NCBI GenBank assembly: GCA_002753225.1
Contig: PDZS01000015.1
Location: forward strand, 27,223-91,222
DNA from: Deltaproteobacteria bacterium YD0425bin51
Lineage (GTDB): Bacteria; Desulfobacterota; Desulfobacteria; Desulfobacterales; YD0425bin51
Direction of reading: 5' to 3'
Length of the DNA stretch: 64,000 nt
The number at the start of each line of letters is the position of its first letter. Within the stretch, counting starts at the first letter, position 1. A program made the translations under genes and the position numbers. The notes beneath the pieces were generated by a model that saw only the letters and a program-made list of their open reading frames with translations, was not told the origin of the DNA and did not search any database. This document shows positions 5,261 through 56,348 of the stretch, piece after piece.

Positions 5261-5923
5261 TTATTTTCCTAATAAAAAATCAATTAGAGGTGTTGCAAAA
5301 AAATTAATTACTTTGTTTAAAGAATCTGTTGCTAAAAGAATCATTATTATTATTAAACCAAAGCGCTCAATAGAGTTAAAACTTTCTCGTATTTTGTCTG
5401 GCAAAAATATTGCTAAAATACGGCTGCCGTCTAGAGGAGGGATGGGAATAAGATTAAATACAGCTAATACTGAATTTATGATTATGCTGTTTATAAGCAT
5501 ATAAAGAAGATCCATAATAATTGGTTTTAATAAGGTAGTGGCCCATGACTTCTCAAAATAAATGAAAATATGCAGAATTATGGCTGACAAAACTGCTAAA
5601 ATAAAATTAGCTGTAACGCCTGCAGCAGAAACATAAATAGTACCTTTTTTAAAGTTATGAAAATTATAAGGGTTTACTGGTACTGGCTTTGCGTATCCAA
5701 AAATAAATGGTGAGCCGGAAAGTTTTAAGAGCAAAGGGAGAATAATTGACCCTACAATATCCAAATGGTATATAGGATTTAAAGTAAGTCTTCCAGCTAG
5801 TTTTGCTGTCATATCTCCCATTTTATATGCAACATATCCATGTGCAACTTCATGGCATGTTACAGAAAGAATAAGAGGAACAAGCATTACCACCCATTTA
5901 TTTAATTCAATATCAAGAGACAT
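5261..5923 (-). CDS. Site-2 protease family zinc metalloprotease (M50, SpoIVFB-like)
   Basis: 220 aa polytopic membrane protein with HEVAHGYV (HExxH) in the first TM region and a later LDG motif. Overlaps the upstream gene by 11 nt. Confidence 0.8.
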   Translation of the reverse strand: MSLDIELNKWVVMLVPLILSVTCHEVAHGYVAYKMGDMTAKLAGRLTLNPIYHLDIVGSIILPLLLKLSGSPFIFGYAKPVPVNPYNFHNFKKGTIYVSAAGVTANFILAVLSAIILHIFIYFEKSWATTLLKPIIMDLLYMLINSIIINSVLAVFNLIPIPPLDGSRILAIFLPDKIRESFNSIERFGLIIIMILLATDSLNKVINFFATPLIDFLLGK

Positions 5924-8555
5924 AATTTTTCACAAAAGAAAGTTCATCTTCTCTGTTTGATAGAAGACCGTTTAGTTTTGCATCCAAAACTGCGTTTAAA
6001 ATTTTGCCATAAATTGGTCCTTCTTTTATATTTATGGCTCTTAAATCCTTACCAGTTATTGAAATTTTTTCATTTTTAAGCTGTGTCAAATAAAATGATA
6101 TAGCTTTTTTAACTTTTTCATATTTTGTTTGAGCCATCATATAAAGTATAAGCTCAGTTTTAAATATAGAGAGTTTACTATAAAGCAAGCTGTTTTGAGT
6201 AGGTAAGTTTTGCTCTAGCCAGAAAAGAATTTGATTAGCTATTATTCTTTCTTTGGAAAAAATATCTCTCTGACGAACAGGAAGTTCAAAATTGTTACAT
6301 ATTTCTTCACTGATTTTTTGATCTAAATTTTTAAGAAGCGCTAGAAAATAAATGGCCCATTTCATTAATCTTTCTTCTAAAAAAAGCAAATCATGCCATG
6401 CTAATGTTTTTTTTACTGAATCAAGTTGGGATATTATTTCTTTATTTAATTTAATTAATGGGTGTATCGCACTTAAAAGATTATAATCATTCAATCTAAT
6501 GATTGCATTTGTTGGATTTTCTTCTTCTAATATTTGTTTTACTTCAGCAAAAACTCTTCTACCACTTAAGCGTTTAAAAAAATCCATTTTCACTGCATTT
6601 TCAATAAGACTGGAAGTTAACTTACCTATTGTAAATCCAAATCTTTGTTCAAATCTTATTGCCCTGAAAATTCGGGTTGGGTCTTCAACAAAGCTAAGGT
6701 TATGTAAAACTCTAATAATTTTTTCCTTTAAGTCTTTTTGTGAACCAAAAAAGTCAATAAGAGTGCCAAATTTATCATGGTTTAACTGAATAGCTAAAGC
6801 ATTTATTGTAAAATCCCTTCTGAATAGATCTAATTTTATTGAACTCATTTCAACAACAGGGAGTGCTGCTGGAAATTTATAATATTCTATTCTAGCAGAT
6901 GCTACATCTATTTTAGATCCATCAGAAAACTTGATAATCGCTGTTCCAAAGGTTTCGTGAGAATATATCTTTGCTTTAAATATAGATGCAAATTTTTTAG
7001 CAAAAGCTATTCCATCCCCTTCTATTACAATATCAATATCTTCGTTAGTTTTATATAGAAATAGATCTCTTACAAAACCTCCTACTATATAGGCGTTTAA
7101 ATTGAGTTCATCTGCTATTTTTCCTATATCTTTAAGCTTTTTTATTAAACGATCAGATAATCTTTCATTCATGAATTTTATAATATTTCTGGTTCTAGGT
7201 CCTACAGACTCATTTAAATATATATTTCCTTTATCTGATTTTATATGGGTTTGATATACAAGTACATTCAAAAGATCAGTTCTTGTTATAACACCTATAA
7301 GCTTATTATTATCAACAACTGGTAAAATTCTCTGTTTATTATCAATTATTTTTGTCTGTATTTCACTAAGATGAGCGTCAGGATTTACAGTTACAATTTC
7401 TGTATTCATATATTCACAAACAGGTACTATATCCAATTTATGAAACAGAGCTTTTTCAATGATCTGTCTGGATATAAAACCAAGGATAGAATCATTATCA
7501 GTTACTATAAGAGTATTTATATTATAGCGTGTTAAAATTGTGCTTGCTTCCCTGCAGGTTACATTTGGCGAAATTGTAATAACCGGGAATGACATAAGCT
7601 CTTTTGCATAACGTCTTGCTTTAATTTTTTGATAAAGAGTGCTTATAAGCTTTTGTTCAACTTGAGTAAGAGTTTCTCCTTTAACTGTAGCTGATGCTGC
7701 AAAACTATGTCCTCCACCCCCAAATGTTAATAAGATATCTGCTACGTCAACTTCAGAAATTCTGCTTCTTGCAACTATATAAATATTATCAGCCATTCTA
7801 GCTATTACAAAAATAGCATTTAGATTCTCCATTTTAATAATTTTTTGTACTAGAAGTGCAATGTCTGCTACATAATTATCTCTGGAAAAAATTGTAATTA
7901 CTATATCAACGCCATGAATGCTGTAATGAGTTAAGGACTGAATCATGTCGCTAAGTAGTCCTATTTGCTCTGGTGTTATTTCTCTTGATATGAGGTTAGC
8001 TATAATATTTAAATTAGCACCTTTGGATAATAAAAAAGCAGCGGCGCTGAAATCTTTTTCTGTTGTTGAAGAGTAAGTAAATGAACCTGTGTCTTCATAT
8101 ATACCAAGACACATTATTGTAGCTTCATCTGGAGATATGGGAATTCCTTTATTTTTTATTATTTCAGTTAATATAGTTATAGTTGCTCCTGTTAATTCAT
8201 TTACTTCAAAATTGCTTTTGATATCGTTTATTGCTGGAGGATGGTGATCATAAATATGAATCTCAATATTTGATTGTTGAAGAAGAGAAGAAAGCTTTCC
8301 GATGCGATTAGCTTGTCTTGTATCTACTAAAACTAGTCTTTTTACAGAAGAAAGATCTATATCTTTAATATCTGCCATATTAAAAAGATAGAATATGGAT
8401 TTTATGAAAAAGTTTCTTAAAGTTTTTTCTTGAGAGCCTGGAAAAACTAAAAGAGCATCTGGATAGAGCTTTTGAGCAGCAAGCATTGAGGCTACAGCGT
8501 CAAAGTCAGAATTTATATGGGTTGTAATAACAGTAAGGTTTTGATTATTTTGCAT
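5913..8555 (-). CDS. Multidomain DHH/DHHA1 phosphoesterase - CBS pair - poly(A) polymerase/CCA tRNA nucleotidyltransferase family protein
   Basis: 880 aa. The N-terminus has DHH (HINSDFDAVAS, YDHHPP) and DHHA1 (GGGGHSFAAS). The middle has two CBS modules. The C-terminal half carries the Pol-beta NTase head GGFVRDLFL...DIDIV plus the tRNA-NT tail. Confidence 0.75.
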   Translation of the reverse strand: MQNNQNLTVITTHINSDFDAVASMLAAQKLYPDALLVFPGSQEKTLRNFFIKSIFYLFNMADIKDIDLSSVKRLVLVDTRQANRIGKLSSLLQQSNIEIHIYDHHPPAINDIKSNFEVNELTGATITILTEIIKNKGIPISPDEATIMCLGIYEDTGSFTYSSTTEKDFSAAAFLLSKGANLNIIANLISREITPEQIGLLSDMIQSLTHYSIHGVDIVITIFSRDNYVADIALLVQKIIKMENLNAIFVIARMADNIYIVARSRISEVDVADILLTFGGGGHSFAASATVKGETLTQVEQKLISTLYQKIKARRYAKELMSFPVITISPNVTCREASTILTRYNINTLIVTDNDSILGFISRQIIEKALFHKLDIVPVCEYMNTEIVTVNPDAHLSEIQTKIIDNKQRILPVVDNNKLIGVITRTDLLNVLVYQTHIKSDKGNIYLNESVGPRTRNIIKFMNERLSDRLIKKLKDIGKIADELNLNAYIVGGFVRDLFLYKTNEDIDIVIEGDGIAFAKKFASIFKAKIYSHETFGTAIIKFSDGSKIDVASARIEYYKFPAALPVVEMSSIKLDLFRRDFTINALAIQLNHDKFGTLIDFFGSQKDLKEKIIRVLHNLSFVEDPTRIFRAIRFEQRFGFTIGKLTSSLIENAVKMDFFKRLSGRRVFAEVKQILEEENPTNAIIRLNDYNLLSAIHPLIKLNKEIISQLDSVKKTLAWHDLLFLEERLMKWAIYFLALLKNLDQKISEEICNNFELPVRQRDIFSKERIIANQILFWLEQNLPTQNSLLYSKLSIFKTELILYMMAQTKYEKVKKAISFYLTQLKNEKISITGKDLRAINIKEGPIYGKILNAVLDAKLNGLLSNREDELSFVKNYVS

Positions 8556-30904: not shown

Positions 30905-32551
30905 TTACTTTAGTGAATTGTATAATATAAAACCGCCTGAAATTCCTTTGGCATTAAATCCATATTGCCTTAAAATTCTTGCTGCAATATATGATCTTTT
31001 ACCAACAACACAATATGTAAGTATTTCTCGATCTTTAGGAATTTCTGAGATTTTATCTCTAATTTGATGCAAAGGAATATTAATGCTTCCTTGAAGGTGG
31101 CTTTTTGAATATTCAAAAACTGTTCTGACATCTATAATGTAAGGAGAATTATCATTTATATTTTCCCAATGAGCAACAGGAGAATAACCTCTAATTGAAT
31201 TTGATGCAATCATACCAGCCATATTTACAGGGTCTTTTGCTGAACCATATGGTGGAGCATAACATAATTCAGCTTCTTCAAGGTCAAAAACAGTTCCATT
31301 TTTTTGAATAGCCATGGAAATAACGTCAATCCGCTTATCAACTCCTGCCATACCTACAGCTTGTGCGCCTAAAATTTTTCCATCTGACTGTGAAAATATG
31401 AGCTTCATTGTTATTGTTTTAGCATCAGGGTAATAACCAGCATGATTGTCCGGATGAAGGTAAATCTTTTCATATTCATTCATTTTATTTCTTTTCAGTG
31501 CTTTTTCTGAAAGACCTGTAAATGCAACAGTTAAACCTAGAATACCGCATATAGATGTTCCTTGAACTCCTCTGAATTTAGGCAATGGGTCTTTTCCAAA
31601 AAGAACGTCAGCAACTATTCTACCTTGTCTATTAGCTGGACCAGCAAGCGGAATAAGTGCAGGTATTCCTGAAATATAATCTTTAACTTGAACTGCATCA
31701 CCTACTGCATAGATATTTTCATCACTGGTCTGCATATATTCATTAACTTCAATTCCTCCAAGTTTGCCAATGGATAGTCCTGCCTGTTTTGCCAGATCAA
31801 TTTCCGGTTTAACACCAATACTTAAAACCACAATATCAGATTGTATAACTTTCCCTGTATTAGTTAAAATTCCTATACTTCCGTCCTTTTCCTGTTTAAA
31901 TCCTGTTACAGAAGTTTTTAATAAAAGAGAAATATCATATTTCTTTAGGTGTTCATGAATAAAGCTTGCAATTTCTGGATCAACTGGAGGCATAACTTGA
32001 GGCTGCATTTCAATAATAGAAACATCCAAACCATGCCTTTTTAGATTTTCAACCATTTCAAGCCCAATAAAACCTCCTCCAACAACAACAGCCCGTTTTA
32101 TATGTTTCTGTTTTATCCAGTTTATTATATTTCTGGAATCAGCTATGTTTCGCAGAGTAAATATGCCTGGTAAATCGATTCCATCTAGTTTAGGTTTGAT
32201 TGGAGAAGCTCCAGGAGATAGAAGGAGTTTATCGTATGATTCTTTATAAATTTTACCTGTTTTTAAGTCCTGAACTTCAATCTCTTTTTTTTCTCTATTT
32301 ATTGAGCAGACGTTATTTTCAGTTCTTACTTCAATATTAAACCAGCCTTTAAACATTTGAGGAGAAGCTACAAGAAGGTTTTCTTCTTTTGTAATTACAT
32401 TTCCAACATAATAAGGAAGTCCGCAGTTTGCAAATGAAACAAATTCACCTCGTTCAAAGATAATAATTTCAGTATGTTCTGAGAGCCTTCTAGCACGAGC
32501 TGCGCATGATGCTCCTCCTGCAACACCTCCGACAATTAATAATCTCTTCAT
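30905..32551 (-). CDS. CoA-disulfide reductase / NADH oxidase family flavoprotein with C-terminal rhodanese domain
   Basis: 548 aa. FAD motif IVGGVAGGASCAAR, redox-active Cys in SFANCGLPYY, a second NAD-binding GGGFIGLE, and a C-terminal rhodanese CVVGKRS active-site loop. Confidence 0.8.
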   Translation of the reverse strand: MKRLLIVGGVAGGASCAARARRLSEHTEIIIFERGEFVSFANCGLPYYVGNVITKEENLLVASPQMFKGWFNIEVRTENNVCSINREKKEIEVQDLKTGKIYKESYDKLLLSPGASPIKPKLDGIDLPGIFTLRNIADSRNIINWIKQKHIKRAVVVGGGFIGLEMVENLKRHGLDVSIIEMQPQVMPPVDPEIASFIHEHLKKYDISLLLKTSVTGFKQEKDGSIGILTNTGKVIQSDIVVLSIGVKPEIDLAKQAGLSIGKLGGIEVNEYMQTSDENIYAVGDAVQVKDYISGIPALIPLAGPANRQGRIVADVLFGKDPLPKFRGVQGTSICGILGLTVAFTGLSEKALKRNKMNEYEKIYLHPDNHAGYYPDAKTITMKLIFSQSDGKILGAQAVGMAGVDKRIDVISMAIQKNGTVFDLEEAELCYAPPYGSAKDPVNMAGMIASNSIRGYSPVAHWENINDNSPYIIDVRTVFEYSKSHLQGSINIPLHQIRDKISEIPKDREILTYCVVGKRSYIAARILRQYGFNAKGISGGFILYNSLK

Positions 32552-32555
32552 TTTA

Positions 32556-34397
32556 TTAAACCTCCTGTTTTCTTTTAGATGCTTCTTTTAGATGCCTTTG
32601 ATGGCTAGAAAGTACACTTTTTCTTAGTCTTATTGATTTTGGTGTAACTTCTATCAGCTCATCATCTTTAATAAAGTTAATAGCGCGCTCTAAAGTCATT
32701 TGTTTTATAGTAGTTAAGATAATATTTTCATCTTTTCCAGCAGCCCTCATATTACTTAATTTTTTTTCTTTGCATGGGTTTACATTAATATCATTATGCT
32801 TGCTGTGTTCGCCAATTACCATTCCTTCATATACAAGATTACCGGGTACAATAAAAAGTTGACCTCTTGGCTCTAGATTAAATAAGGCATAAGCTACAGC
32901 ATTTCCTGATCTGTCACTTACAAGTGAACCAGTAAATCTGGTTAAAAAATCACCTCTATAAGGCTCATATCCAATAAAGTAAGAATTTATAATTCCTGTA
33001 CCTTTTGTGTCAGTTAAAAGTTCTTCTCTGTAACCTATAAGCCCCCTGGAAGGTATACTAAATTCTATTCTTACCCTTCCTTTGCCGTCATTTGCAAGAT
33101 TCAGCATCTTTCCTTTTCTAATGGAAAGTTTTTCAGTAACAATTCCCATAAATTCTTCATTACAATCAATAAAAAGATGTTCAATTGGTTCTAACTTTGT
33201 TTTATCCTCATATTTATATATAACCTCAGGTCTTCCAACGCACATTTCAAAGCCTTCTCTCCGCATGGTTTCAACCAAAATAGCCATTTGGAATTCCCCA
33301 CGTCCTTTTACTGTAAAACTTTCTTTATCATCTGTCATTTCAACTTGAATAGCAACATTTTTCAATGCTTCTTTTTGAAGTCTTTCAAAAATTCTACTAG
33401 ACTGAACGTAGGCTCCTTCTCGACCAACTAAAGGGGAGTTGTTTCCAGAAAATTTCATGCTCACTGTAGGCTCGTCAACTCTAATTCTATTTAATGCTTT
33501 AGGCGAGCTTTTTGTACAGATTGTATCACCTATTGTAACATTTTCAATACCTGATAAAACAACTATGTCTCCTGGTTCTACAAAATCTGCAGGAACGAAT
33601 TTAGGTCCTTCGTAAACTTGAAGTCTTATAACTTTTAAAGGAATACTTTCTCCTTTTCCGTTTATACAGATTAGATTATCATTAGACATTGTTTTACCAT
33701 TTATTATTCTCCCAATTGCCAGTCTTCCCATATAATCGGAATATCCTAAATCAGCAACCAGCATTTGAAAAGGCTCATCTATTTCATATTTAGGTCCTGG
33801 TATATATTCAAGTACTGTATCAAAAAGAATTTCTAAATTTTTATTTTCATCTTCTAAATTTTTCTTGCAAACTCCATCTCTTCCAATTGAATAGAGTACA
33901 GGAAAATCTATTTGCTCCTCTGTTGCATCCAGATCAATAAAAAGGTCATAGATTTCATCTAATACCTGAGTGATTCTAGCATCTTTTCTATCAATTTTAT
34001 TTATAACTACTATAACCTTTAATTTAGCCTCCAATGTTTTCTTTAAAACAAATCGAGTCTGGGGGAGAGGTCCTTCTGATGCATCAACTAAAAGAAGAGC
34101 ACCGTCTGCCATAGCAAGAGCACGTTCTACTTCTCCTCCAAAATCAGCATGCCCTGGCGTATCTATTATATTAATCTTTACATTTTTCCAAAACACTGAA
34201 CAATTTTTGGCAGCAATTGTGATTCCTCTTTCCCTCTCTAAATCAAGGTTATCCATTACTCTTCTGGCTATTTCCTGGCCATCTCTAAAAACTCCGCTTT
34301 GTTTAAACATAGCGTCAACTAATGTTGTTTTTCCATGATCAACATGTGCAATAATAGCAATATTTCTTATTTTGTCATTTACAGCAATTCGCTTCAT
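32556..34397 (-). CDS. typA: Translational GTPase TypA/BipA
   Basis: 613 aa. G-domain AHVDHGKTTL and DTPGHADF, EF-G-like domains II/III/V and the BipA C-terminal domain. Confidence 0.93.
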   Translation of the reverse strand: MKRIAVNDKIRNIAIIAHVDHGKTTLVDAMFKQSGVFRDGQEIARRVMDNLDLERERGITIAAKNCSVFWKNVKINIIDTPGHADFGGEVERALAMADGALLLVDASEGPLPQTRFVLKKTLEAKLKVIVVINKIDRKDARITQVLDEIYDLFIDLDATEEQIDFPVLYSIGRDGVCKKNLEDENKNLEILFDTVLEYIPGPKYEIDEPFQMLVADLGYSDYMGRLAIGRIINGKTMSNDNLICINGKGESIPLKVIRLQVYEGPKFVPADFVEPGDIVVLSGIENVTIGDTICTKSSPKALNRIRVDEPTVSMKFSGNNSPLVGREGAYVQSSRIFERLQKEALKNVAIQVEMTDDKESFTVKGRGEFQMAILVETMRREGFEMCVGRPEVIYKYEDKTKLEPIEHLFIDCNEEFMGIVTEKLSIRKGKMLNLANDGKGRVRIEFSIPSRGLIGYREELLTDTKGTGIINSYFIGYEPYRGDFLTRFTGSLVSDRSGNAVAYALFNLEPRGQLFIVPGNLVYEGMVIGEHSKHNDINVNPCKEKKLSNMRAAGKDENIILTTIKQMTLERAINFIKDDELIEVTPKSIRLRKSVLSSHQRHLKEASKRKQEV

Positions 34398-34995: not shown

Positions 34996-35958
34996 ATGGA
35001 ACTTATAAATTTAGAAGATGATTCTGTTGAAAAAAAAACATATGATTTATTAATTTTAGGCGGAGGTGCATCAGCAATGACAGCTGCTATTTATGCAGCT
35101 AGAAAGATGTTAAAGATTGCTTTGATGACCAAAGATATAGGTGGACAGATTACTTATACTTCAGAAATAGAGAACTATCCAGGGTTCCAAGCAATTACAG
35201 GAAATGAGCTTACAGATAAATTTCAAGCCCAAGTTAAGGCTTTTGATATTCCCATATGGCTGGACAATATTTCTAAAGTCCGAAAAGAAGAGGATTTGTT
35301 TTATGTTGAAACAGAAAGTGAAACAGTTTTTAAGGGGAGAACTCTTATAGTTGCTACTGGAAAACGTTATAGATCACTTAATGTTCCTGGAGAAAAGGAA
35401 TTTGTTGGAAGAGGAGTAGCTTATTGCAGCACATGTGATGCTCCTTTTTATAGAAATAGAAATGTTGTAGTTGCAGGAGGAGGAAATTCAGCCGTAACTG
35501 CTGCATTAGATTTGCTTAAAGTTGCAAAACATGTTTATTTAGTCAATTATTCCAAAGGGCTGCAAGCAGACCCAATTATGATATCTTCTCTAGAAAAATT
35601 TAAGGATAAATTAACGCTTTTGGATGAAAGTGCCATAACTAAAATTGAAGGTGATAAGTTTGTAACAGGTATTTATATAAAAGATAGAAAAGATAATAAA
35701 GAAAGAATAATTGAAGCAGAAGGAATTTTTATTGAAATTGGTTTGATACCAAATTCAGAAATAGTAAAAGATTTTGTTGAGCTTAATAAAAATAATGAAA
35801 TTGTTGTTGATTATAAGTGTTCTACTAATATACTAGGGTTATTTGCAGCAGGTGATGTAACAACAGTTCCACACAAACAGATTATAATAGCTGCAGGAGA
35901 GGGAGCAAAAGCAGCACTGTCTGCTTATGAATATCTATCTAAACAGGGCTATGTCTAA
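34996..35958 (+). CDS. Thioredoxin-disulfide reductase-like flavoprotein
   Basis: 320 aa. FAD motif LILGGGASAMTAAIYAA, redox CxxC in YCSTCDAPFY, NADPH-binding VVAGGGNSA. Confidence 0.75.
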   Translation: MELINLEDDSVEKKTYDLLILGGGASAMTAAIYAARKMLKIALMTKDIGGQITYTSEIENYPGFQAITGNELTDKFQAQVKAFDIPIWLDNISKVRKEEDLFYVETESETVFKGRTLIVATGKRYRSLNVPGEKEFVGRGVAYCSTCDAPFYRNRNVVVAGGGNSAVTAALDLLKVAKHVYLVNYSKGLQADPIMISSLEKFKDKLTLLDESAITKIEGDKFVTGIYIKDRKDNKERIIEAEGIFIEIGLIPNSEIVKDFVELNKNNEIVVDYKCSTNILGLFAAGDVTTVPHKQIIIAAGEGAKAALSAYEYLSKQGYV

Positions 35959-50108: not shown

Positions 50109-51074
50109 ATGAAAACCAGATTTCATCTTGTTCATAATAATGATGGTTGGAAATTAGTTTTGAAACAAAATTTTGATCCCAATAATATAGTCAAAGGAAG
50201 GCGACCTGTTGTAATAATTCCAGGGTATGGGATGAATGCTTTTATATTTGGTTATCACCCTACTGGACTTTCAATGGAGGAGTATATAGTGTCTCAAGGT
50301 TTTGAGGTCTGGTCAGTGAATTTACGAAATCAAGGGGATGCTATTAGAGTAGATGGTGGGAGTAATTATACAATAGGAGATATCTCCTTAATAGATTTAC
50401 CACATGCTTTTGATTACATTATTGAAAATAATGAAACTGGAGCTGATTTGATAGATGGAATAGGTTGCAGTCTTGGCGGTACATATCTTTGTGTATATGC
50501 TGCTTTATGTGATGATCCTAAACTTGGTTCTCTTGTTTCAATGGGTGGGCCATTAAAATGGGTGGAAGTGCATCCTGCTTTAAAATTTGCCATGAGTTCT
50601 CCATGGCTGCTGGGTCTTATACCTCTTTGTGGAACTAGAGCTTTTGCTAAGATTGCTTTCCCAATGATTGCTAATTATGCGCCATCTTTGCTTAAAATAT
50701 ATATGCATCCTGAAATAGTTGATATATCTAAAAGTGCAGACTTAGTGCAGACTGTTGAGGACCCAAATCGATTTTTAAATCGTGAAATTGCCATCTGGGT
50801 TAAGAACAAAGACCTTTATGTTAAGGGACAAAATGTTACGGAGAAGCTTAAAAGATTTGTAAGTCCAATAATGTGCATGGTAGCTAATGCTGATGGAATT
50901 GTTCCTGAAAAAACAGTAACTTCAGCTCTTGAAGCCAGCGGTAGCAAGAATAAAAAGACAATTTATTGTGGAAATGAGTCAATAAAGCTTGCTCATGCAG
51001 ACATGTTTATAAGCGACTATGCCCATGAAATGGTATTTAAACCTTTGTGTGAATGGTTAAAATCTCAATATTAG
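50109..51074 (+). CDS. Alpha/beta-fold serine hydrolase (lipase/esterase-like)
   Basis: 321 aa with the GCSLGG nucleophile elbow. Divergent from the lipase gene. Confidence 0.6.
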   Translation: MKTRFHLVHNNDGWKLVLKQNFDPNNIVKGRRPVVIIPGYGMNAFIFGYHPTGLSMEEYIVSQGFEVWSVNLRNQGDAIRVDGGSNYTIGDISLIDLPHAFDYIIENNETGADLIDGIGCSLGGTYLCVYAALCDDPKLGSLVSMGGPLKWVEVHPALKFAMSSPWLLGLIPLCGTRAFAKIAFPMIANYAPSLLKIYMHPEIVDISKSADLVQTVEDPNRFLNREIAIWVKNKDLYVKGQNVTEKLKRFVSPIMCMVANADGIVPEKTVTSALEASGSKNKKTIYCGNESIKLAHADMFISDYAHEMVFKPLCEWLKSQY

Positions 51075-51096
51075 AAAGTAGAGGAGTAAATATATA

Positions 51097-53517
51097 ATGA
51101 CAACAGATACATCCCGTATAGGTGTTTATGTATGCCACTGCGGTTTAAATATAGCTCAGACAGTGGATTGTTCGGAAGTTAAAGAAAAAGCATCCAAATT
51201 AGAAGGAGTTGTTATATCAAAAGATATAGCTTACGCATGCTCAGAACCAGGTCAAAAAGAAATTAGAGATGACATATATAAAAACGAGTTAAATAGAATT
51301 GTTATAGCATCCTGTTCTCCTAGGCTACATGAGCCTACTTTCCGTAACATGATGGTTGATGCTGATCTAAATCCATATTTGCTGGATATGGCAAATATTC
51401 GTGAACAATGCAGTTGGGTTCATATGTCTGATAAAAGAGGAGCTACTGATAAAGCCATTGATCTTGTTAAAATGTCAGTGGGAAGAGTAAAAGAGCTTCA
51501 GCCTCTTTTTGAGGAAAGACTTTCTCTTACAAAAAGAAGTTTAGTCATTGGAGGAGGAATAGCTGGAATTCAGGCTGCTTTAGATCTTGCAGATAATGGT
51601 TATGAAGTTGTTTTAGTTGAAAAGAATGCATCCATTGGCGGAATTATGGCTAAATTAGATAAAACATTTCCAACAATGGATTGTTCCATCTGAATTTTAG
51701 GTCCTAAAATGACAGATGTCGGTCGACATCCTAAAATTAAACTTTTAACTCTTAGTGAAGTTGTTGATGTAAAAGGTTACGTTGGTAATTTTGAAGTAAA
51801 AATTTTAAAAAGACCAAGATATATAGAAGAAAAAGATTGCACATCATGCGGAGATTGCACTAAGGTATGCCCAGTTGTAAGACCAGATGAGTTCAATGTT
51901 GGATTATCTTCTAGGAAAGCAATATTTAAACCCTTCCCACAAGCTGTTCCTTCAGCGTATATTTTAAATATTTCTGAATGTCTTGGTCATAATCCTTCAG
52001 TCTGCGCTAAATGCCTTGAAGCTTGTGATAAAAAATGTATAAATTTTCATATGTCAGACAAAGAATTAGTTGAAAAGGTAGGTACAATTGTTGTTGCAAC
52101 AGGTGTTGAGCCTTATGATCCTAAAATTCTTGATGAATATGGATATACCCGTTTTGACAATGTTGTAACCAGCCTAGAATTTGAAAGATTAGTAAATGCC
52201 GGAGGTCCAAGCAAAGGGGATTTAATTCGTCCAACTGACATGAAAAGACCAAAATCAGTAGGTTTTATTCAATGTGTAGGATCTCGAGCTAAAAGGAAAG
52301 GAAAAGAGTACTGCTCTAATGTTTGCTGTATGAATACTATTAAAAGCACTCTTGTATTAAAAGAACATTTTGAAGATATTGAAATAAAAGTATTTTACAT
52401 TGATATCAGAGCGTTTGGAAAAGGTTTTGAAAATCTTTTTAAAAGAAGTAGAGAACTTGGAGTTCATTATTTGAGAGGACTTCCTGGAAGAGTTGAAGAA
52501 CTTGCGGATAAAAGTCTTCGCGTTGCAGTAGAAAATACAAGCACTGGAAAAATAGAATTTTATGATTTAGATATGCTTGTTTTAGCAATAGGATTAAACC
52601 CATCTAAAAGCACACAAAAAATTCAGGAAATGCTTGGTCTTCAACTTACTCCTGATGGTTTTTTCCTTGAAGCCCATCCCAAGCTTCAACCTGTAGATGC
52701 TGCAACTCGTGGTATCTTTTACGCAGGATGTGCTGAATCTCCTAAAGATATTAAAGATACTGTAACTCAAGCTTCAGCAGCTTCAAGCAGAGCTATAAGA
52801 ATTATGCATAAAGGAGAAATTTTAACTGAGCCAATTACGTCAGAAGTGATTGTTAATCTGTGCAAAGCATGTGGAAAATGCGCTGAAGTATGTCCCTATA
52901 ATGCTATTTCTGTAGATGTTAAGAAAAAAATATTAGCGAAAGTTAATTCAGCAGCATGTGCTGGATGTGGAACTTGTGCAGCAGAATGTCCTTTTGGTGC
53001 AATCCAAATGAATCATTTTAGCGATGTTCAGATTACAAATCAGATAGATGAACTCCTCTCTGATGACTCTGAGCAAAAAATATTAGCCTTTGCATGTAAT
53101 TGGTGTTCCTATGCTGGAGCAGATTATGCTGGAGTTTCAAGAGTTCAATATCCATCTAATGTCAGAATAATAAGAACAATGTGTTCAGGTCGTGTTAGTG
53201 AAGATTTTATATGGCGCGGATTTTTAAAAGGAGCGCCTGTTATATTAGTTAGTGGTTGCCACATTGGTGATTGCCATTATATCAATGCAAATCATTGGAC
53301 TGAGAAAAGAATAGAAAAAGTAAGAGCTAAAATGGAAAAAATGGGAATCAGACAAGATAGGCTCCAATTGGCATGGATTAGCGCAGCAGAAGGGATTTTA
53401 TTCGGAGAAGTTATGAATAAAATGGAGGTGTTAAGAAAAAGTGTTTCATCTAAGGAAATTGCAGAAACAATTGGTATTTTGACAAACAAACTTAAAAACA
53501 TAAGGACAAAAACATGA
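51097..53517 (+). CDS. hdrA: Heterodisulfide reductase subunit A-like flavoprotein fused to an MvhD-like domain; selenoprotein with in-frame UGA (Sec) at 51691..51693
   Basis: One continuous frame. GGGIAGIQAALDLA (FAD) ... KTFPTMDCSI-TGA-ILGPKMTDVGRHPK aligns with HdrA FPTNDCSMCILAPKLVEVGRHP, so the TGA sits at a conserved Cys. Two ferredoxin-type 4Fe-4S motifs (CxxCxxCxxxCP) follow, then a C-terminal MvhD-like domain (CNWCSY...CSGR...GCHIGDCHY). Confidence 0.8.
51694..51737 (+). promoter_or_regulatory. Bacterial SECIS-like stem-loop downstream of the hdrA UGA
   Basis: Apical hairpin GATGTC-GGUC-GACATC (51715..51730), whose GGUC loop matches the E. coli fdhF SECIS apical loop, begins 21 nt after the UGA. 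A lower stem AUUUUAGG (51694..51701) / CCUAAAAU (51730..51737) can enclose it. Confidence 0.6.
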
Positions 53518-53605: not shown

Positions 53606-54757
53606 ATGATAGAACTTAGAAAATTTCTTGCTCCAGAATTTGTATTTGGGGAAGGAGCAATACATTTAGCAGGACAATATGCAAGAAATTTTAGCGCACA
53701 AAAAGTGTTAGTTGTAACTGATTCTGGTGTTATTCTCGCAGGATGGGCAGATAAAGTTACAAAATCATTAGAGAGTTCAGGGATTAACTATTCTATATAT
53801 CATAATGTTTCTCCAAATCCTAGGGCAGAAGAGGTGATGGAGGGAGCAGATTATTATCATAGCGAAGGATGTGATATCATAATTGCTGTTGGCGGCGGCA
53901 GTGCTATAGATTGTGCAAAAGGTATAGGTATTGTCAGCACAAATAAAAAAAATATTCTTGAATTTGAAGGTGTTGATAATGTAAGTATTCCAGGACCTCC
54001 TTTAATATGTATTCCAACCACATCAGGAACATCAGCAGATGTTTCACAATTCGACATAATTACAAACTCAAAAGATAAAATAAAAATTGCAATAATAAGT
54101 AAAGCAATGGTGCCTGATGTGGCACTTATTGATCCGTCTACTGCTTTAACTATGGATACTTATTTAACTGCATGTACAGGTATTGACGCCTTTGTTCATG
54201 CCATAGAAGCTTTTGTTTCAACTGCAAGTTCTCCTATTACAGATCTGCACGCCCTAGAAGCTATAAAATTGATTCATGAAAATCTTCTTAAAGTTATTAA
54301 TAATCCAAATGATATTATACTTCGCAGCAAAATTATGTTTGCAAGCCTTCAGGCAGGACTTGCATTTTCAAATGCAAGTCTTGGAGCAGTACATGCAATG
54401 GCACATAGTTTGGGTGGATATTTAGATCTTCCTCATGGTGAATGTAACAGCATTTTAATAGATCATGTAGTTGCTTTTAATTATAAAGAGGCAAATGATC
54501 GTTTTAATAAAATAGGTGATGTCTTAAAATTAGATTTAACTAGTATGACTTCTAAAGAAAAACAGAAAGCAGTACTAGAAGAAATTACCAGATTTAAAAT
54601 AGCTGCTGGTATTAGTTCTACACTTAGCAAAAAAGGAGTTTCAATTTCAGATATCCCTGAATTATCTAAAAAAGCATTATGCGATCCATGTATTGTTACA
54701 AATCCTAGACGTCCAAATAAGCGTGATATTGAGGTAATATATGAAGAAGCCATCTAA
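53606..54757 (+). CDS. Iron-containing (group III) alcohol dehydrogenase
   Basis: 383 aa. GGGSAIDCAKG motif and conserved His-rich metal site (HAMAHSLGG). Confidence 0.88.
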   Translation: MIELRKFLAPEFVFGEGAIHLAGQYARNFSAQKVLVVTDSGVILAGWADKVTKSLESSGINYSIYHNVSPNPRAEEVMEGADYYHSEGCDIIIAVGGGSAIDCAKGIGIVSTNKKNILEFEGVDNVSIPGPPLICIPTTSGTSADVSQFDIITNSKDKIKIAIISKAMVPDVALIDPSTALTMDTYLTACTGIDAFVHAIEAFVSTASSPITDLHALEAIKLIHENLLKVINNPNDIILRSKIMFASLQAGLAFSNASLGAVHAMAHSLGGYLDLPHGECNSILIDHVVAFNYKEANDRFNKIGDVLKLDLTSMTSKEKQKAVLEEITRFKIAAGISSTLSKKGVSISDIPELSKKALCDPCIVTNPRRPNKRDIEVIYEEAI

Positions 54758-56348
54758 TATTCATGATCAATGGAAAGATATGCGTAATCGCATTATTGGA
54801 TTTGGCGAAAAATCAATAAAAAAAAGCTATTACCCAGAATTACGAGAACAGCTTTTAGAGCTCACTGAGACAAAAGAAAAATATCGTCAGCTATTTGAAT
54901 ATGCAACAGATGCTATTTTTATCATTCAAAATCAATTTATTAAGTTTCCAAACCCTAAAACCCTTGAGCTTCTTGGTTATTCATCAGAAGAATTAGCAAA
55001 TACTGATTTTTTTAGCTTAATTAAGGAATCAGATATACCTTTAATTAAAGAATGGTGTCAAAAAAAACATGCAAATGATACAGAAAATAGCCCAATATCA
55101 TTTGTTATTTTACCTAAAAATAGAGAAAAATTATGGGTTGAACTAAATTCAGTAATAATAAATTGGGAAGGTAAACCTGCTCTCTTAAATTTTTTAAGAG
55201 ATATTACTGAGAAGAAAAGTCTTGAAACTCAACTTTTGCAGTCACAAAAGATGGAAAGTCTAGGGACTCTTGCAGGAGGTATTGCTCATGATTTTAACAA
55301 TCTTCTTATGGGAATACAGGGAACTTTATCCCTTACTTTGCTTGAGTCTAATATAACTGATAATATTTCCATTCAATTAAAAAAAATTGAGCAATATGTA
55401 AAACAAGCATCTGAGCTTACAAACCAATTATTAGGTTTTGCAAGAAAAGGAAAATATGAAGTTAAACCAGCTAATATTAATAATCTTGTAGAAAAAACCT
55501 CTATGCTCTTTGGCAGGACAAAAAAAGAAATTACCATAAATTCTCAATATCAAAAAGATGTATGGACAGTTGAAGTTGATATGTGCCAACTGGAGCAAGT
55601 TCTCCTTAATCTTTATATAAATGCTTGGCAGGCAATGCCAAATGGTGGGGAAATTCATCTTAAAACTAAAAATGTCGTTTTAAATAAAGACAATCTAAAA
55701 TCGATTTCTGTTACGCCTGGAAAATATGTAAATTTTTCTATTAGTGACACAGGTGTTGGAATAGATGAAAAAACAGTTCAAAGAATTTTTGAACCTTTTT
55801 TTACTACAAAAGAGATTGGGAGAGGAACTGGACTTGGTCTTGCGTCAGCTTATGGAATTATTAAAAATCATGGTGGATTTATCACAGTAAATAGTAAAAT
55901 TGGTGTTGGATCAACTTTTGATATATTTTTGCCAGCCTCAGATAAAAAACTTCCTATTGAGAATAGAACAGAAGAAGAAATAATAAAAGGGGATAAAACA
56001 GTTTTAATTATTGATGATGAGAAAATGGTACTGGATGTAATGCCTAAAATGTTAAATAAACTAGGCTATAAAACTCTAACTGCACAAAATGGTAAAGAGG
56101 CAATAGAGATTTATGAAAATAATATTAAAAAAATTGACATTGTTATTCTTGATATAATTATGCCAGAAATGAGCGGAGCAGATGTTTTTAAACATTTAAA
56201 GGAAATAGATCCAAATGTTAAAGTGCTTCTCTGCAGCGGATACAGTATTGAAGATGTAGCACCTCAATTACTTAATGAGGGGTGTAAAGGGTTTATAAAA
56301 AAACCTTTTAATATGATACAATTATCACATAAGTTAAAGGAGATTTAA
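54741..56348 (+). CDS. PAS-domain hybrid sensor histidine kinase with C-terminal receiver
   Basis: 535 aa. PAS, H-box GIAHDFNNLL, HATPase (DTGVGID, GTGLGLASA), REC (DIIMPEMSG). Start overlaps the ADH gene end. Confidence 0.85.
   Translation: MKKPSNIHDQWKDMRNRIIGFGEKSIKKSYYPELREQLLELTETKEKYRQLFEYATDAIFIIQNQFIKFPNPKTLELLGYSSEELANTDFFSLIKESDIPLIKEWCQKKHANDTENSPISFVILPKNREKLWVELNSVIINWEGKPALLNFLRDITEKKSLETQLLQSQKMESLGTLAGGIAHDFNNLLMGIQGTLSLTLLESNITDNISIQLKKIEQYVKQASELTNQLLGFARKGKYEVKPANINNLVEKTSMLFGRTKKEITINSQYQKDVWTVEVDMCQLEQVLLNLYINAWQAMPNGGEIHLKTKNVVLNKDNLKSISVTPGKYVNFSISDTGVGIDEKTVQRIFEPFFTTKEIGRGTGLGLASAYGIIKNHGGFITVNSKIGVGSTFDIFLPASDKKLPIENRTEEEIIKGDKTVLIIDDEKMVLDVMPKMLNKLGYKTLTAQNGKEAIEIYENNIKKIDIVILDIIMPEMSGADVFKHLKEIDPNVKVLLCSGYSIEDVAPQLLNEGCKGFIKKPFNMIQLSHKLKEI

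What the first reader, a model, noticed from the sequence alone, without database searches (positions are those of the whole stretch)
51694..51737. fdhF-like bacterial SECIS hairpin with GGUC apical loop right after the UGA
The apical stem-loop GAUGUC-GGUC-GACAUC begins 21 nt downstream of the UGA and its GGUC loop matches the E. coli fdhF SECIS apical loop. A lower stem AUUUUAGG / CCUAAAAU (8 bp) flanks it. This supports SelB-dependent recoding at 51691..51693.
Basis: seen in the sequence. Interest (0 to 1): 0.65.

Follow-up and report, generated by a model that had tools for sequence, protein, structure and literature searches.

The report
Selenocysteine insertion hairpin in hdrA gene
A small RNA hairpin just after an in-frame UGA in a heterodisulfide-reductase (hdrA2) gene is a genuine, strongly conserved bacterial selenocysteine-insertion signal, but it is an ordinary example of a known mechanism in a known selenoprotein family.

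Summary
The apical hairpin GAUGUC-GGUC-GACAUC (51715-51730) exists as described, 21 nt after an in-frame UGA (51691-51693). That UGA interrupts one HdrA2-MvhD fusion gene (51097-53517) at a conserved Cys position.

All 160 orthologous loci fetched (80 genomes, 80 metagenome contigs, 37-64% GC) have TGA at this codon and the same hairpin.
- The only stem pair free to vary switches U-A / C-G through U·G and never shows C·A. It needs at least 18-20 independent changes on a tree.
- Synonymous sites inside the hairpin are frozen, while flanking codons vary freely.
- Cys-type homologues that encode the same peptide (TDVGRHP) use varied codons, and none has the GGUC loop.

The hairpin meets every criterion of the published bacterial SECIS model.

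It is expected about 14% of the time from the peptide and AT-rich codon usage, and it overlaps the apical stem by one base.

The element shares only the GGUC loop with E. coli fdhF. It has no bulged U and sits 9-10 nt further from the UGA.

Verdict: a real SECIS and a new member of a known kind, of low interest. SelB dependence is inferred; no sel genes lie in the window.

The parts
51097..53517 (+). One selenoprotein gene: an HdrA2-type heterodisulfide reductase subunit A fused to an MvhD (FlpD) domain, 806 codons including the UGA. In the public protein collection it appears as two separate gene products (198 aa and 602 aa).
   Evidence: The read-through translation is continuous apart from the one TGA. 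NCBIfam NF040770 HdrA2 scores 1179.4 bits against a cut-off of 1100. Pfam FlpD matches residues 662-777. PDB 5ODC_A HdrA matches at E = 8e-231. Both fragments are separate entries on the same 91,222-bp NCBI contig.
51691..51693 (+). In-frame UGA, read as selenocysteine (inferred). It lies in the motif FPTMDCSI-U-ILGPKM and aligns with Cys in Cys-type homologues and with Cys197 of HdrA in 5ODC.
   Evidence: TGA is present in 81 of 81 and in 80 of 80 further loci. Cys is at this position in 88 full-length homologues. The alignment to 5ODC_A is ungapped, with query residue 199 matching chain residue 197. This is the only TGA-split long ORF in the window, and 8 of 44 other long ORFs end in TGA, so the genetic code is standard.
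51715..51730 (+). The SECIS core: a 6-bp stem (51715-51720 paired with 51725-51730) closing the 4-nt loop GGUC (51721-51724). It encodes Asp-Val-Gly-Arg-His-(Pro). In most orthologues a seventh G-C pair is added; in the window that position is A51714·C51731, which is unpaired.
   Evidence: Sequence. Energy is -7.1 kcal/mol. The RNAalifold consensus structure consists of exactly this hairpin. With the seventh pair, 98.8% of cells are paired, and pair 41-48 is UA 43 / CG 29 / UG 9. Third-position entropy is zero in the hairpin codons. Pair probability is 0.97-1.0 once the 9-15 nt after the UGA are left out.
51693..51701 (+). The 5' arm of an AU-rich lower stem found only in this window (AAUUUUAGG). 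It is probably incidental.
   Evidence: It pairs with 51730-51738 in the MFE structure. It is not conserved. P = 0.14 from the peptide plus codon usage.
51730..51738 (+). The 3' arm of the window-specific lower stem (CCUAAAAUU). C51730 is shared with the apical stem.

Best explanation
The hairpin at 51715-51730 (6-bp stem, GGUC loop) is the core of a bacterial selenocysteine insertion sequence (SECIS) inside the coding region of an hdrA2-mvhD fusion gene.

Inferred mechanism: when the ribosome reaches the UGA at 51691-51693, the first roughly 10-15 downstream nucleotides lie in the mRNA channel. Any lower stem is therefore melted, and the apical hairpin stands just outside the ribosome. [quoted passage not shown] It then delivers Sec-tRNA(Sec) to the UGA. 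Translation continues, giving one 806-residue protein with selenocysteine in place of the Cys that corresponds to Cys197 of methanogen HdrA. According to PMC9012536, that residue is a ligand of the N-terminal [4Fe-4S] cluster of the partner HdrA protomer.

Shown here: the in-frame UGA at a Cys position; the hairpin; its conservation, covariation and synonymous-site constraint; and its coupling to TGA rather than TGC/TGT.

Inferred: SelB binding, actual Sec insertion, and the role of the Sec residue.

For: 1. Gene context. The UGA splits a single HdrA2-MvhD reading frame. The homologous residue is Cys in 88 full-length homologues and Cys197 in 5ODC_A.
2. Conservation. 80 of 80 genome loci and 80 of 80 metagenome loci (70-79% aa identity, 37-64% GC) have TGA at this codon and the hairpin G(G)AUGYC-GGUC-GRCAUC(C).
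3. Covariation. The only pair not fixed on both sides by the amino acids switches U-A / C-G with U·G intermediates and no C·A: 93 / 53 / 15 / 0 in 161 sequences. It needs at least 18 and 20 changes of the two bases on an NJ tree of 146 distinct orthologues. None of 10,000 shuffles is free of C·A. Only the sense-strand RNA tolerates U·G.
4. Synonymous constraint. Third-position entropy is 0 bits in GAT, GTC/GCC and CAT, and 0.1 in GGT, against 0.8-1.8 bits in flanking codons. The window keeps GTC (6.5% of its Val codons) and CGA (8.2% of its Arg codons) despite 31.7% GC.
5. Control. Cys-type HdrA2 genes encoding the same (M/T)DVGRHP peptide use varied codons. Most keep 2-4 of 6 pairs, and none has a GGUC loop.
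6. Folding. The RNAalifold consensus is exactly this hairpin. It appears in the MFE of 69 of 81 orthologues. In the window its pair probability is 0.97-1.0 once the nucleotides that would sit in the ribosome are excluded.
7. Model criteria. It meets the published bSECIS model: 4-nt loop, 6-7 bp stem, GG at the loop start, 27 nt from the UGA to the loop, MFE -11.8 kcal/mol (PMC13188914).
8. Family. HdrA is a known selenoprotein family in Deltaproteobacteria (PMC1794560).
Against: - No selA, selB or selD gene among the 45 ORFs of 200 aa or more, and no tRNA-Sec in the 64 kb. The Sec machinery of this genome is therefore unverified.
- The strict MFE of the isolated window segment uses a different inner stem. 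In isolation the apical hairpin has only about 0.4 pair probability.
- No Rfam family matches.
- Given this peptide and AT-rich codon usage, some 6-pair hairpin would arise 35% of the time by chance, so the window alone is weak evidence.
- Compared with the experimentally defined E. coli fdhF element, it has no bulged U and lies 9-10 nt further from the UGA (PMC8659212).
Confidence: 0.9

Rival explanations
1. The functional SECIS in this organism is the full two-helix, fdhF-like structure the reader drew: the 8-9 bp AU-rich lower stem (51693-51701 with 51730-51738) contributes to recoding together with the apical hairpin.
For: The lower stem is part of the MFE and of the near-MFE structure that contains the apical hairpin (-11.5 against -7.1 kcal/mol for the hairpin alone). 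The window lacks the seventh G-C pair that most orthologues have, so extra stabilisation might compensate. In E. coli fdhF, pairing in the lower region has a modest effect on read-through (about 25% according to PMC8659212).
Against: It is not conserved: 61% of cells are paired and the inner pairs are broken in 49-66 of 81 orthologues. An alternative register is also only 60% paired, and RNAalifold drops it. It is expected in 14% (8/8 pairs) to 51% (7/8 or more) of random synonymous encodings of ILG...PKI with this genome's codon usage. Its 5' arm starts directly after the UGA, so it must be unpaired while the UGA is in the A site (established ribosome footprint; inference). It competes with the apical stem for C51730.
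Confidence: 0.12
2. The hairpin is conserved only because the peptide Asp-Val/Ala-Gly-Arg-His-Pro is conserved. There is no RNA-level function.
For: G-R-H-P is conserved in Cys-type homologues too. Five of the seven pairs are fixed on at least one side by non-wobble codon positions. With AT-rich codon usage the peptide forms some 6-pair hairpin 35% of the time.
Against: Synonymous third positions are frozen only inside the hairpin. Cys-type genes with the identical peptide use GAC, GTG, GTA, GGA, GGC, GGG, CGT and CAC, and lose the pairs and the GGUC loop. The Val/Ala second position covaries with the Arg wobble base.
Confidence: 0.03
3. The TGA is a real stop: either two adjacent genes (198 aa and 602 aa, as in the deposited gene calls) or a pseudogene. 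The hairpin is then an intercistronic or terminator-like element.
For: Gene callers produced two separate products. The downstream piece starts with an ATG (51709).
Against: The two parts are in the same frame, only 5 codons apart, and together match one HdrA2 model end to end and one PDB chain without a gap. TGA is maintained at exactly this Cys codon in 160 of 160 orthologues. No T-run follows the hairpin. The Met at 51709 is an internal conserved residue (CILGPKM) in full-length Cys homologues.
Confidence: 0.02
4. UGA is reassigned genome-wide (for example to Trp or Gly), or the palindrome acts at the DNA level as a protein-binding site.
For: The genome is AT-rich at 31.7% GC. The 16-nt element is a perfect DNA palindrome apart from the loop.
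Against: 8 of 44 other long ORFs terminate at TGA, and only one long ORF in 64 kb is split by TGA. The aligned residue is Cys, not Trp or Gly. U·G intermediates occur (15 of 161) but C·A never does. That asymmetry is expected for sense-strand RNA and not for duplex DNA.
Confidence: 0.01

Closest known systems
E. coli fdhF SECIS (minimal 17-nt upper stem-loop, nt 15-31 counted from the U of UGA)
   Same: It lies in the coding region directly downstream of a Sec UGA. The 4-nt apical loop GGUC is identical, and its GGU is an in-frame Gly codon in both. Both are short G+C-rich upper helices. G23 and U24 of that loop are the SelB contacts in E. coli (PMC8659212).
   Different: There is no bulged U (the U17 equivalent); the stem is a perfect 6-7 bp helix. 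The hairpin base is 21 nt (20 in most orthologues) after the UGA rather than 11. The loop occupies nt 31-34 rather than 22-25. There is no conserved lower helix. The stem sequences are unrelated.
Consensus bacterial SECIS model (bSECISearch; Zhang and Gladyshev 2005, as summarised in PMC13188914) and the predicted SECIS elements of Sec-containing HdrA genes of Deltaproteobacteria (PMC1794560)
   Same: All four model constraints are met (loop 3-9 nt, stem 4-16 bp, G in the first two loop positions, 16-37 nt spacing, MFE of -7.5 or lower). The protein family (HdrA) and the bacterial group (Desulfobacterota) are the same.
   Different: Nothing essential. This is the HdrA2-MvhD fusion subtype in a very AT-rich, unnamed lineage. 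The nucleotide-level description of this particular hairpin was not found in the papers read, and no Rfam family covers it.
Archaeal Sec-containing HdrA (Methanococcales, Methanopyrus)
   Same: The same enzyme family with selenocysteine (PMC1794560, PMC13188914).
   Different: Archaeal SECIS elements lie mostly in the 3' UTR and have a different architecture (GAA_A bulge) (PMC13188914). Here the element is in-frame and directly downstream, which is the bacterial type. Whether the archaeal Sec occupies the same residue was not tested here.

Membership tests
Bacterial SECIS (consensus bSECIS model, PMC13188914 Fig. 2 legend) | Located in the coding region immediately downstream of an in-frame UGA that aligns with Cys in homologues | tested here: met
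   UGA at 51691-51693 in the HdrA2 frame. Cys is at this site in 88 homologues and in 5ODC_A (Cys197).
Bacterial SECIS (consensus bSECIS model, PMC13188914 Fig. 2 legend) | Apical loop of 3-9 nt on an upper stem of 4-16 bp | tested here: met
   4-nt loop and 6-bp stem in the window; 7 bp in 74 of 81 sequences.
Bacterial SECIS (consensus bSECIS model, PMC13188914 Fig. 2 legend) | At least one G in the first two loop positions (mostly G followed by G or U) | tested here: met
   The loop is GGUC in 159 of 161 sequences and GGGC in 2.
Bacterial SECIS (consensus bSECIS model, PMC13188914 Fig. 2 legend) | 16-37 nt between the UGA and the apical loop | tested here: met
   27 nt (51694-51720); identical in all orthologues, with no indels.
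Bacterial SECIS (consensus bSECIS model, PMC13188914 Fig. 2 legend) | Minimum free energy of -7.5 kcal/mol or lower | tested here: met
   -11.8 (MFE) and -11.5 (structure with the apical hairpin) for 51691-51745. The hairpin alone is -7.1, slightly short of the threshold. The consensus orthologue gives -17.0.
Bacterial SECIS (functional definition) | Structure conserved with covariation in Sec-containing orthologues and lost in Cys-containing homologues | tested here: met
Bacterial SECIS (functional definition) | Binds SelB and directs Sec insertion at the UGA | not testable with these tools
   Needs biochemistry, a reporter assay or proteomics.
Bacterial SECIS (functional definition) | The genome encodes selA, selB, selC (tRNA-Sec) and selD | tested here: inconclusive
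   None is in the 64-kb window: no tRNA and no Sel family among the 45 ORFs of 200 aa or more. The rest of the genome was not available; one search found no record for the source contig.
E. coli fdhF-type SECIS | GGUC apical loop with exposed G23 and U24 | tested here: met
   Identical loop sequence. Exposure and contacts were not testable.
E. coli fdhF-type SECIS | Bulged U (U17) in the 5' strand of the upper stem | tested here: not met
   The stem GAUGUC/GACAUC is perfectly paired with no bulge in any of the 161 sequences.
E. coli fdhF-type SECIS | Upper stem-loop placed 11 nt after the UGA | tested here: not met
   21 nt in the window and 20 nt in orthologues with the seventh pair.
E. coli fdhF-type SECIS | Lower helix pairing the region next to the UGA | tested here: inconclusive
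   Present in the window. Not conserved in two registers and explainable by codon usage.
HdrA2 selenoprotein (NCBIfam NF040770) | Full-length match above the curated cut-off, with the UGA at the conserved Cys | tested here: met
   1179.4 bits against a cut-off of 1100, residues 7-787. Sec aligns with Cys.
Any Rfam RNA family | Covariance-model match at or near the gathering score | tested here: not met
   No match at gathering thresholds in the window. Only noise (E between 1 and 5, unrelated families) in 51000-52400.

The most novel reading that the evidence does not exclude
The HdrA2 element may define a distinct, unusually rigid SECIS subclass of Desulfobacterota. It is an 18-nt bulge-less hairpin, GGAUGYC-GGUC-GRCAUCC, placed 20-21 nt from the UGA. 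It is essentially invariant across more than 160 lineages spanning 32-64% GC. That would imply that Desulfobacterota SelB recognises the fdhF-type GGUC loop without the bulged U and at a spacing about 9-10 nt longer than E. coli tolerates. A related possibility is that, in this AT-rich lineage, the newly arisen AU-rich lower stem compensates for the lost seventh G-C pair. Neither is excluded by the data. Most of the rigidity, however, is already explained by the double constraint of coding and pairing.
Probability: 0.15. Interest if true: 0.35.

Novelty: new member of a known kind. Interest (0 to 1): 0.18.

Why it matters
Practical value: the gene should be annotated as one 806-residue selenoprotein, not as the two fragments (198 aa and 602 aa) now in the public collection.

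The selenocysteine replaces the Cys that, in the methanogen HdrA structure, ligates the N-terminal [4Fe-4S] cluster of the partner protomer (PMC9012536). This enzyme therefore probably has a selenium-ligated cluster in its electron-bifurcating module.

The alignment of 161 sequences is a clean textbook case of an RNA structure superimposed on a coding sequence. It could seed an Rfam-style model for automatic detection of Sec-HdrA2 genes.

It does not change what is known about Sec decoding.

Tried and rejected
1. Rfam searches, permissive on 51000-52400 and at gathering scores on the whole window, gave nothing relevant.
2. tRNA-Sec search in the window: none.
3. The source contig of the window could not be retrieved by exact protein look-up.
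4. I scanned the flanks of all fetched loci for other TGA-split ORFs followed by G-loop hairpins, to compare spacing in other selenoprotein genes. The 51 hits were almost all out-of-frame noise in GC-rich DNA, so I abandoned this.
5. Both were about 60% paired and not conserved.
6. A metagenome scan, run to find closer AT-rich relatives that could test the lower stem, found none above 77% identity. It did add 80 independent confirmations of the hairpin.
7. NCBIfam scans of all 45 ORFs of 200 aa or more looked for selA, selB and selD and found none. The 613-aa GTPase at 32556-34397 is TypA/BipA, not SelB.
Full report
**What is at the coordinates**

The sequence at 51691-51740 reads TGA ATT TTA GGT CCT AAA ATG ACA GAT GTC GGT CGA CAT CCT AAA ATT.
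- The TGA at 51691-51693 ends a 198-codon ORF (51097-51693).
- A 602-codon ORF (51709-53517) follows in the same frame.
- Translating 51097-53517 gives one uninterrupted protein apart from that TGA, with the local sequence FPTMDCSI*ILGPKMTDVGRHP.
- With Cys in place of the stop, the protein matches NCBIfam NF040770 (HdrA2) end to end, at 1179.4 bits against a cut-off of 1100.
- It carries a C-terminal MvhD/FlpD domain.
- It aligns without gaps to the solved HdrA chain 5ODC_A (E = 8e-231). The stop corresponds to Cys197 of that chain.
- According to PMC9012536, Cys197 ligates the N-terminal [4Fe-4S] cluster of the partner HdrA protomer.

**The observation**

The apical hairpin is exactly as described: GATGTC (51715-51720), GGTC (51721-51724), GACATC (51725-51730), starting 21 nt after the TGA.

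The E. coli fdhF SECIS sequence that I recalled was confirmed inside fdhF in 5419 of 5426 complete E. coli genomes. It folds with the same GGUC loop.

The lower stem AUUUUAGG/CCUAAAAU also exists. However, its innermost pair uses C51730, which the apical stem also needs.

Folding of the window sequence is less clear-cut.
- In isolation, the MFE of 51685-51745 or 51691-51740 (-11.8 kcal/mol, z = -1.8 to -2.5) keeps the lower stem but uses a different 4-bp inner stem.
- The structure with the apical GGUC hairpin is 0.3 kcal/mol higher. The hairpin alone is worth -7.1 kcal/mol.
It is not decisive, for two reasons.
- First, the hairpin's pair probability is about 0.4 in the isolated segment. It rises to 0.97-1.0 as soon as the 9-15 nt after the UGA are left out. 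Those nucleotides would lie inside the ribosome while the UGA is being decoded; this step is an inference from established ribosome footprints.
- Second, the consensus fold of the orthologues consists of this hairpin alone.

**Chance**

Within the window alone the case is modest.
- There are 48 perfect 6-bp/4-nt hairpins on the + strand, although only this one has a GGTC loop.
- The peptide DVGRH-P would form some 6-pair hairpin in 35% of random synonymous encodings with this genome's codon usage. It would form one with a GGUC loop in 1.6%, and use the observed codons in 0.13%.
- GTC and CGA are rare codons here (6.5% of Val codons and 8.2% of Arg codons) in a 31.7% GC window.

**Comparative evidence**

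A scan of one genome per species returned 80 Desulfobacterota loci at 72-79% protein identity. A metagenome scan returned 80 more at 70-77%.
- All 160 have TGA at the same codon and the hairpin G(G)AUGYC-GGUC-GRCAUC(C) at the same distance, with no indels.
- RNAalifold on the 81-sequence alignment predicts only the 6-bp hairpin.
- Counting pairs for the 7-bp version gives 98.8% paired cells.
- Five pairs never vary, because both partners are constrained by conserved residues and by pairing.
- The one pair that is free (the second position of the Val/Ala codon against the wobble base of Arg) is U-A in 43, C-G in 29 and U·G in 9. It is never C·A.
- Over all 161 sequences the counts are 93, 53, 15 and 0.
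- On an NJ tree of 146 distinct orthologues, built from the protein outside the hairpin, the two bases need at least 18 and 20 changes. The compensation has therefore happened many times independently. None of 10,000 shuffles avoids C·A.
- Tolerance of U·G but not C·A points to the sense-strand RNA rather than to DNA.

**Synonymous sites and the Cys control**

Third-position entropy is 0 bits for GAT, GTC/GCC and CAT, and 0.1 for GGT. The Arg wobble base varies only in step with its partner. Every flanking codon shows 0.8-1.8 bits.

Full-length homologues at 58-73% identity carry Cys at the site (88 of 88), and many encode the same (T/M)DVGRHP peptide. I fetched the DNA of eight of them.
- They use GAC, GTG, GTA, GTT, GGA, GGC, GGG, CGT and CAC freely.
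- Most keep 2-4 of the 6 pairs.
- None has the GGUC loop.
- Two look like fossils of the hairpin: L085 (6/6 pairs, loop GGAC) and L088 (5/6 pairs). This echoes the remnant SECIS-like structures in Cys genes reported in PMC1794560.

The hairpin is thus tied to the UGA, not to the peptide.

**The lower stem**

Its inner pairs are broken in 49-66 of 81 sequences. A second register seen in some orthologues is 60% paired.

Given the peptide ILG...PKI and the window's codon usage, 8/8 pairs are expected in 14% of encodings and 7/8 or more in 51%. Five of the eight pairs follow from the amino acids once Leu is TTR.

I conclude that it is incidental. A minor stabilising role in this lineage cannot be excluded, because the window lacks the seventh G-C pair of the apical stem.

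**Alternatives**
- A genuine stop, or two genes, is contradicted by the single-frame architecture and the perfect retention of TGA at a Cys codon.
- A reassigned UGA is contradicted by 8 of 44 other long ORFs ending in TGA, and by this being the only TGA-split long ORF in 64 kb.
- A terminator is unlikely because no T-run follows the hairpin.

**Comparison with what is known**

HdrA is an established selenoprotein family in Deltaproteobacteria, with up to seven Sec-HdrA copies in Syntrophobacter fumaroxidans (PMC1794560).

The published bacterial SECIS model requires four things (PMC13188914):
- a 3-9 nt loop on a 4-16 bp stem;
- a G in the first two loop positions;
- 16-37 nt between the UGA and the loop;
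- an MFE of -7.5 kcal/mol or lower.

All four are met: a 4-nt loop, a 6-7 bp stem, GG at the loop start, 27 nt of spacing, and -11.8 kcal/mol.

Against the specific E. coli fdhF element (17-nt stem-loop 11 nt after the UGA, bulged U17, loop G23/U24; PMC8659212), only the loop matches.
- There is no bulge.
- The hairpin base is 21 nt (20 in most orthologues) from the UGA.
- The loop occupies nt 31-34 rather than 22-25.

So it works like a bacterial SECIS and is a member of the consensus class, but it is not an fdhF-type element in the narrow sense. No Rfam family matches.

**What remains inferred**

SelB binding and Sec insertion were not tested. The window holds no tRNA gene and no selA, selB or selD among its 45 ORFs of 200 aa or more. 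The 613-aa GTPase is TypA. The remainder of the genome could not be retrieved.

**Verdict**

The lower-stem and 'fdhF-like' details are only partly right. It is a new member of a known kind, of low interest. The practical consequence is that the gene should be annotated as one selenoprotein rather than the two fragments now on record.

Noticed in passing
window 51097-51693 and 51709-53517: The public protein collection holds the two halves of this gene as separate products (198 aa and 602 aa) on the same 91,222-bp NCBI contig. The selenoprotein is therefore split and mis-annotated in the source record's gene calls.
   Followed up: yes
L085:1621-1680 and L088:1627-1686: Two Cys-type HdrA2 genes keep a near-intact copy of the hairpin. 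L085 has TGT followed by GATGTT-GGAC-GACATC (6/6 pairs). L088 has TGC followed by GATGTC-GGCA-AACATC (5/6 pairs). They may be fossil SECIS elements left after recent Sec-to-Cys conversion.
   Followed up: partly
L058:3577-3660 and L098:1588-1647: Two TGA-containing orthologues have the loop GGGC instead of GGUC (Gly codon GGG). This changes the base that corresponds to U24 of E. coli fdhF, which is reported as a SelB contact. The two may be the same or closely related organisms.
   Followed up: no
L073:6441, L083:6294, L084:6778: Several relatives carry a second, Cys-type HdrA-like paralogue (CI[LIM]SPKLVE..GRH) about 3 kb downstream of the Sec-type (L073) or Cys-type HdrA2 gene. It has no hairpin. 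The window has no such neighbour.
   Followed up: partly
window 53606-56348: Directly downstream of hdrA2 lie an ErcA-type iron alcohol-dehydrogenase-like regulatory protein (628.9 bits against a cut-off of 550) and an overlapping hybrid histidine kinase/response regulator. This resembles an ErcA/ErcS-like signalling pair. There are no hdrB or hdrC genes next to hdrA2.
   Followed up: partly
window 1-64000: The window is only 31.7% GC, whereas the 168 related loci are 37-64% GC. The closest HdrA2 in one-genome-per-species and metagenome collections is just 77-79% identical. The source therefore seems to be a divergent, unusually AT-rich Desulfobacterota-like lineage. Its identity was not established.
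   Followed up: partly
window 5913-8555 (- strand): An 880-aa protein matches the A-adding tRNA nucleotidyltransferase model over its full length (1003.7 bits, below the 1440 cut-off). This suggests split CC-adding and A-adding enzymes in this organism.
   Followed up: no
window 30905-32551 and 34996-35958: A CoA-disulfide-reductase-like flavoprotein (548 aa, with a C-terminal extension beyond the 439-residue model) and a thioredoxin-reductase/AhpF-like protein flank the TypA GTPase gene. Both are thiol-redox genes but neither contains an in-frame TGA.
   Followed up: no
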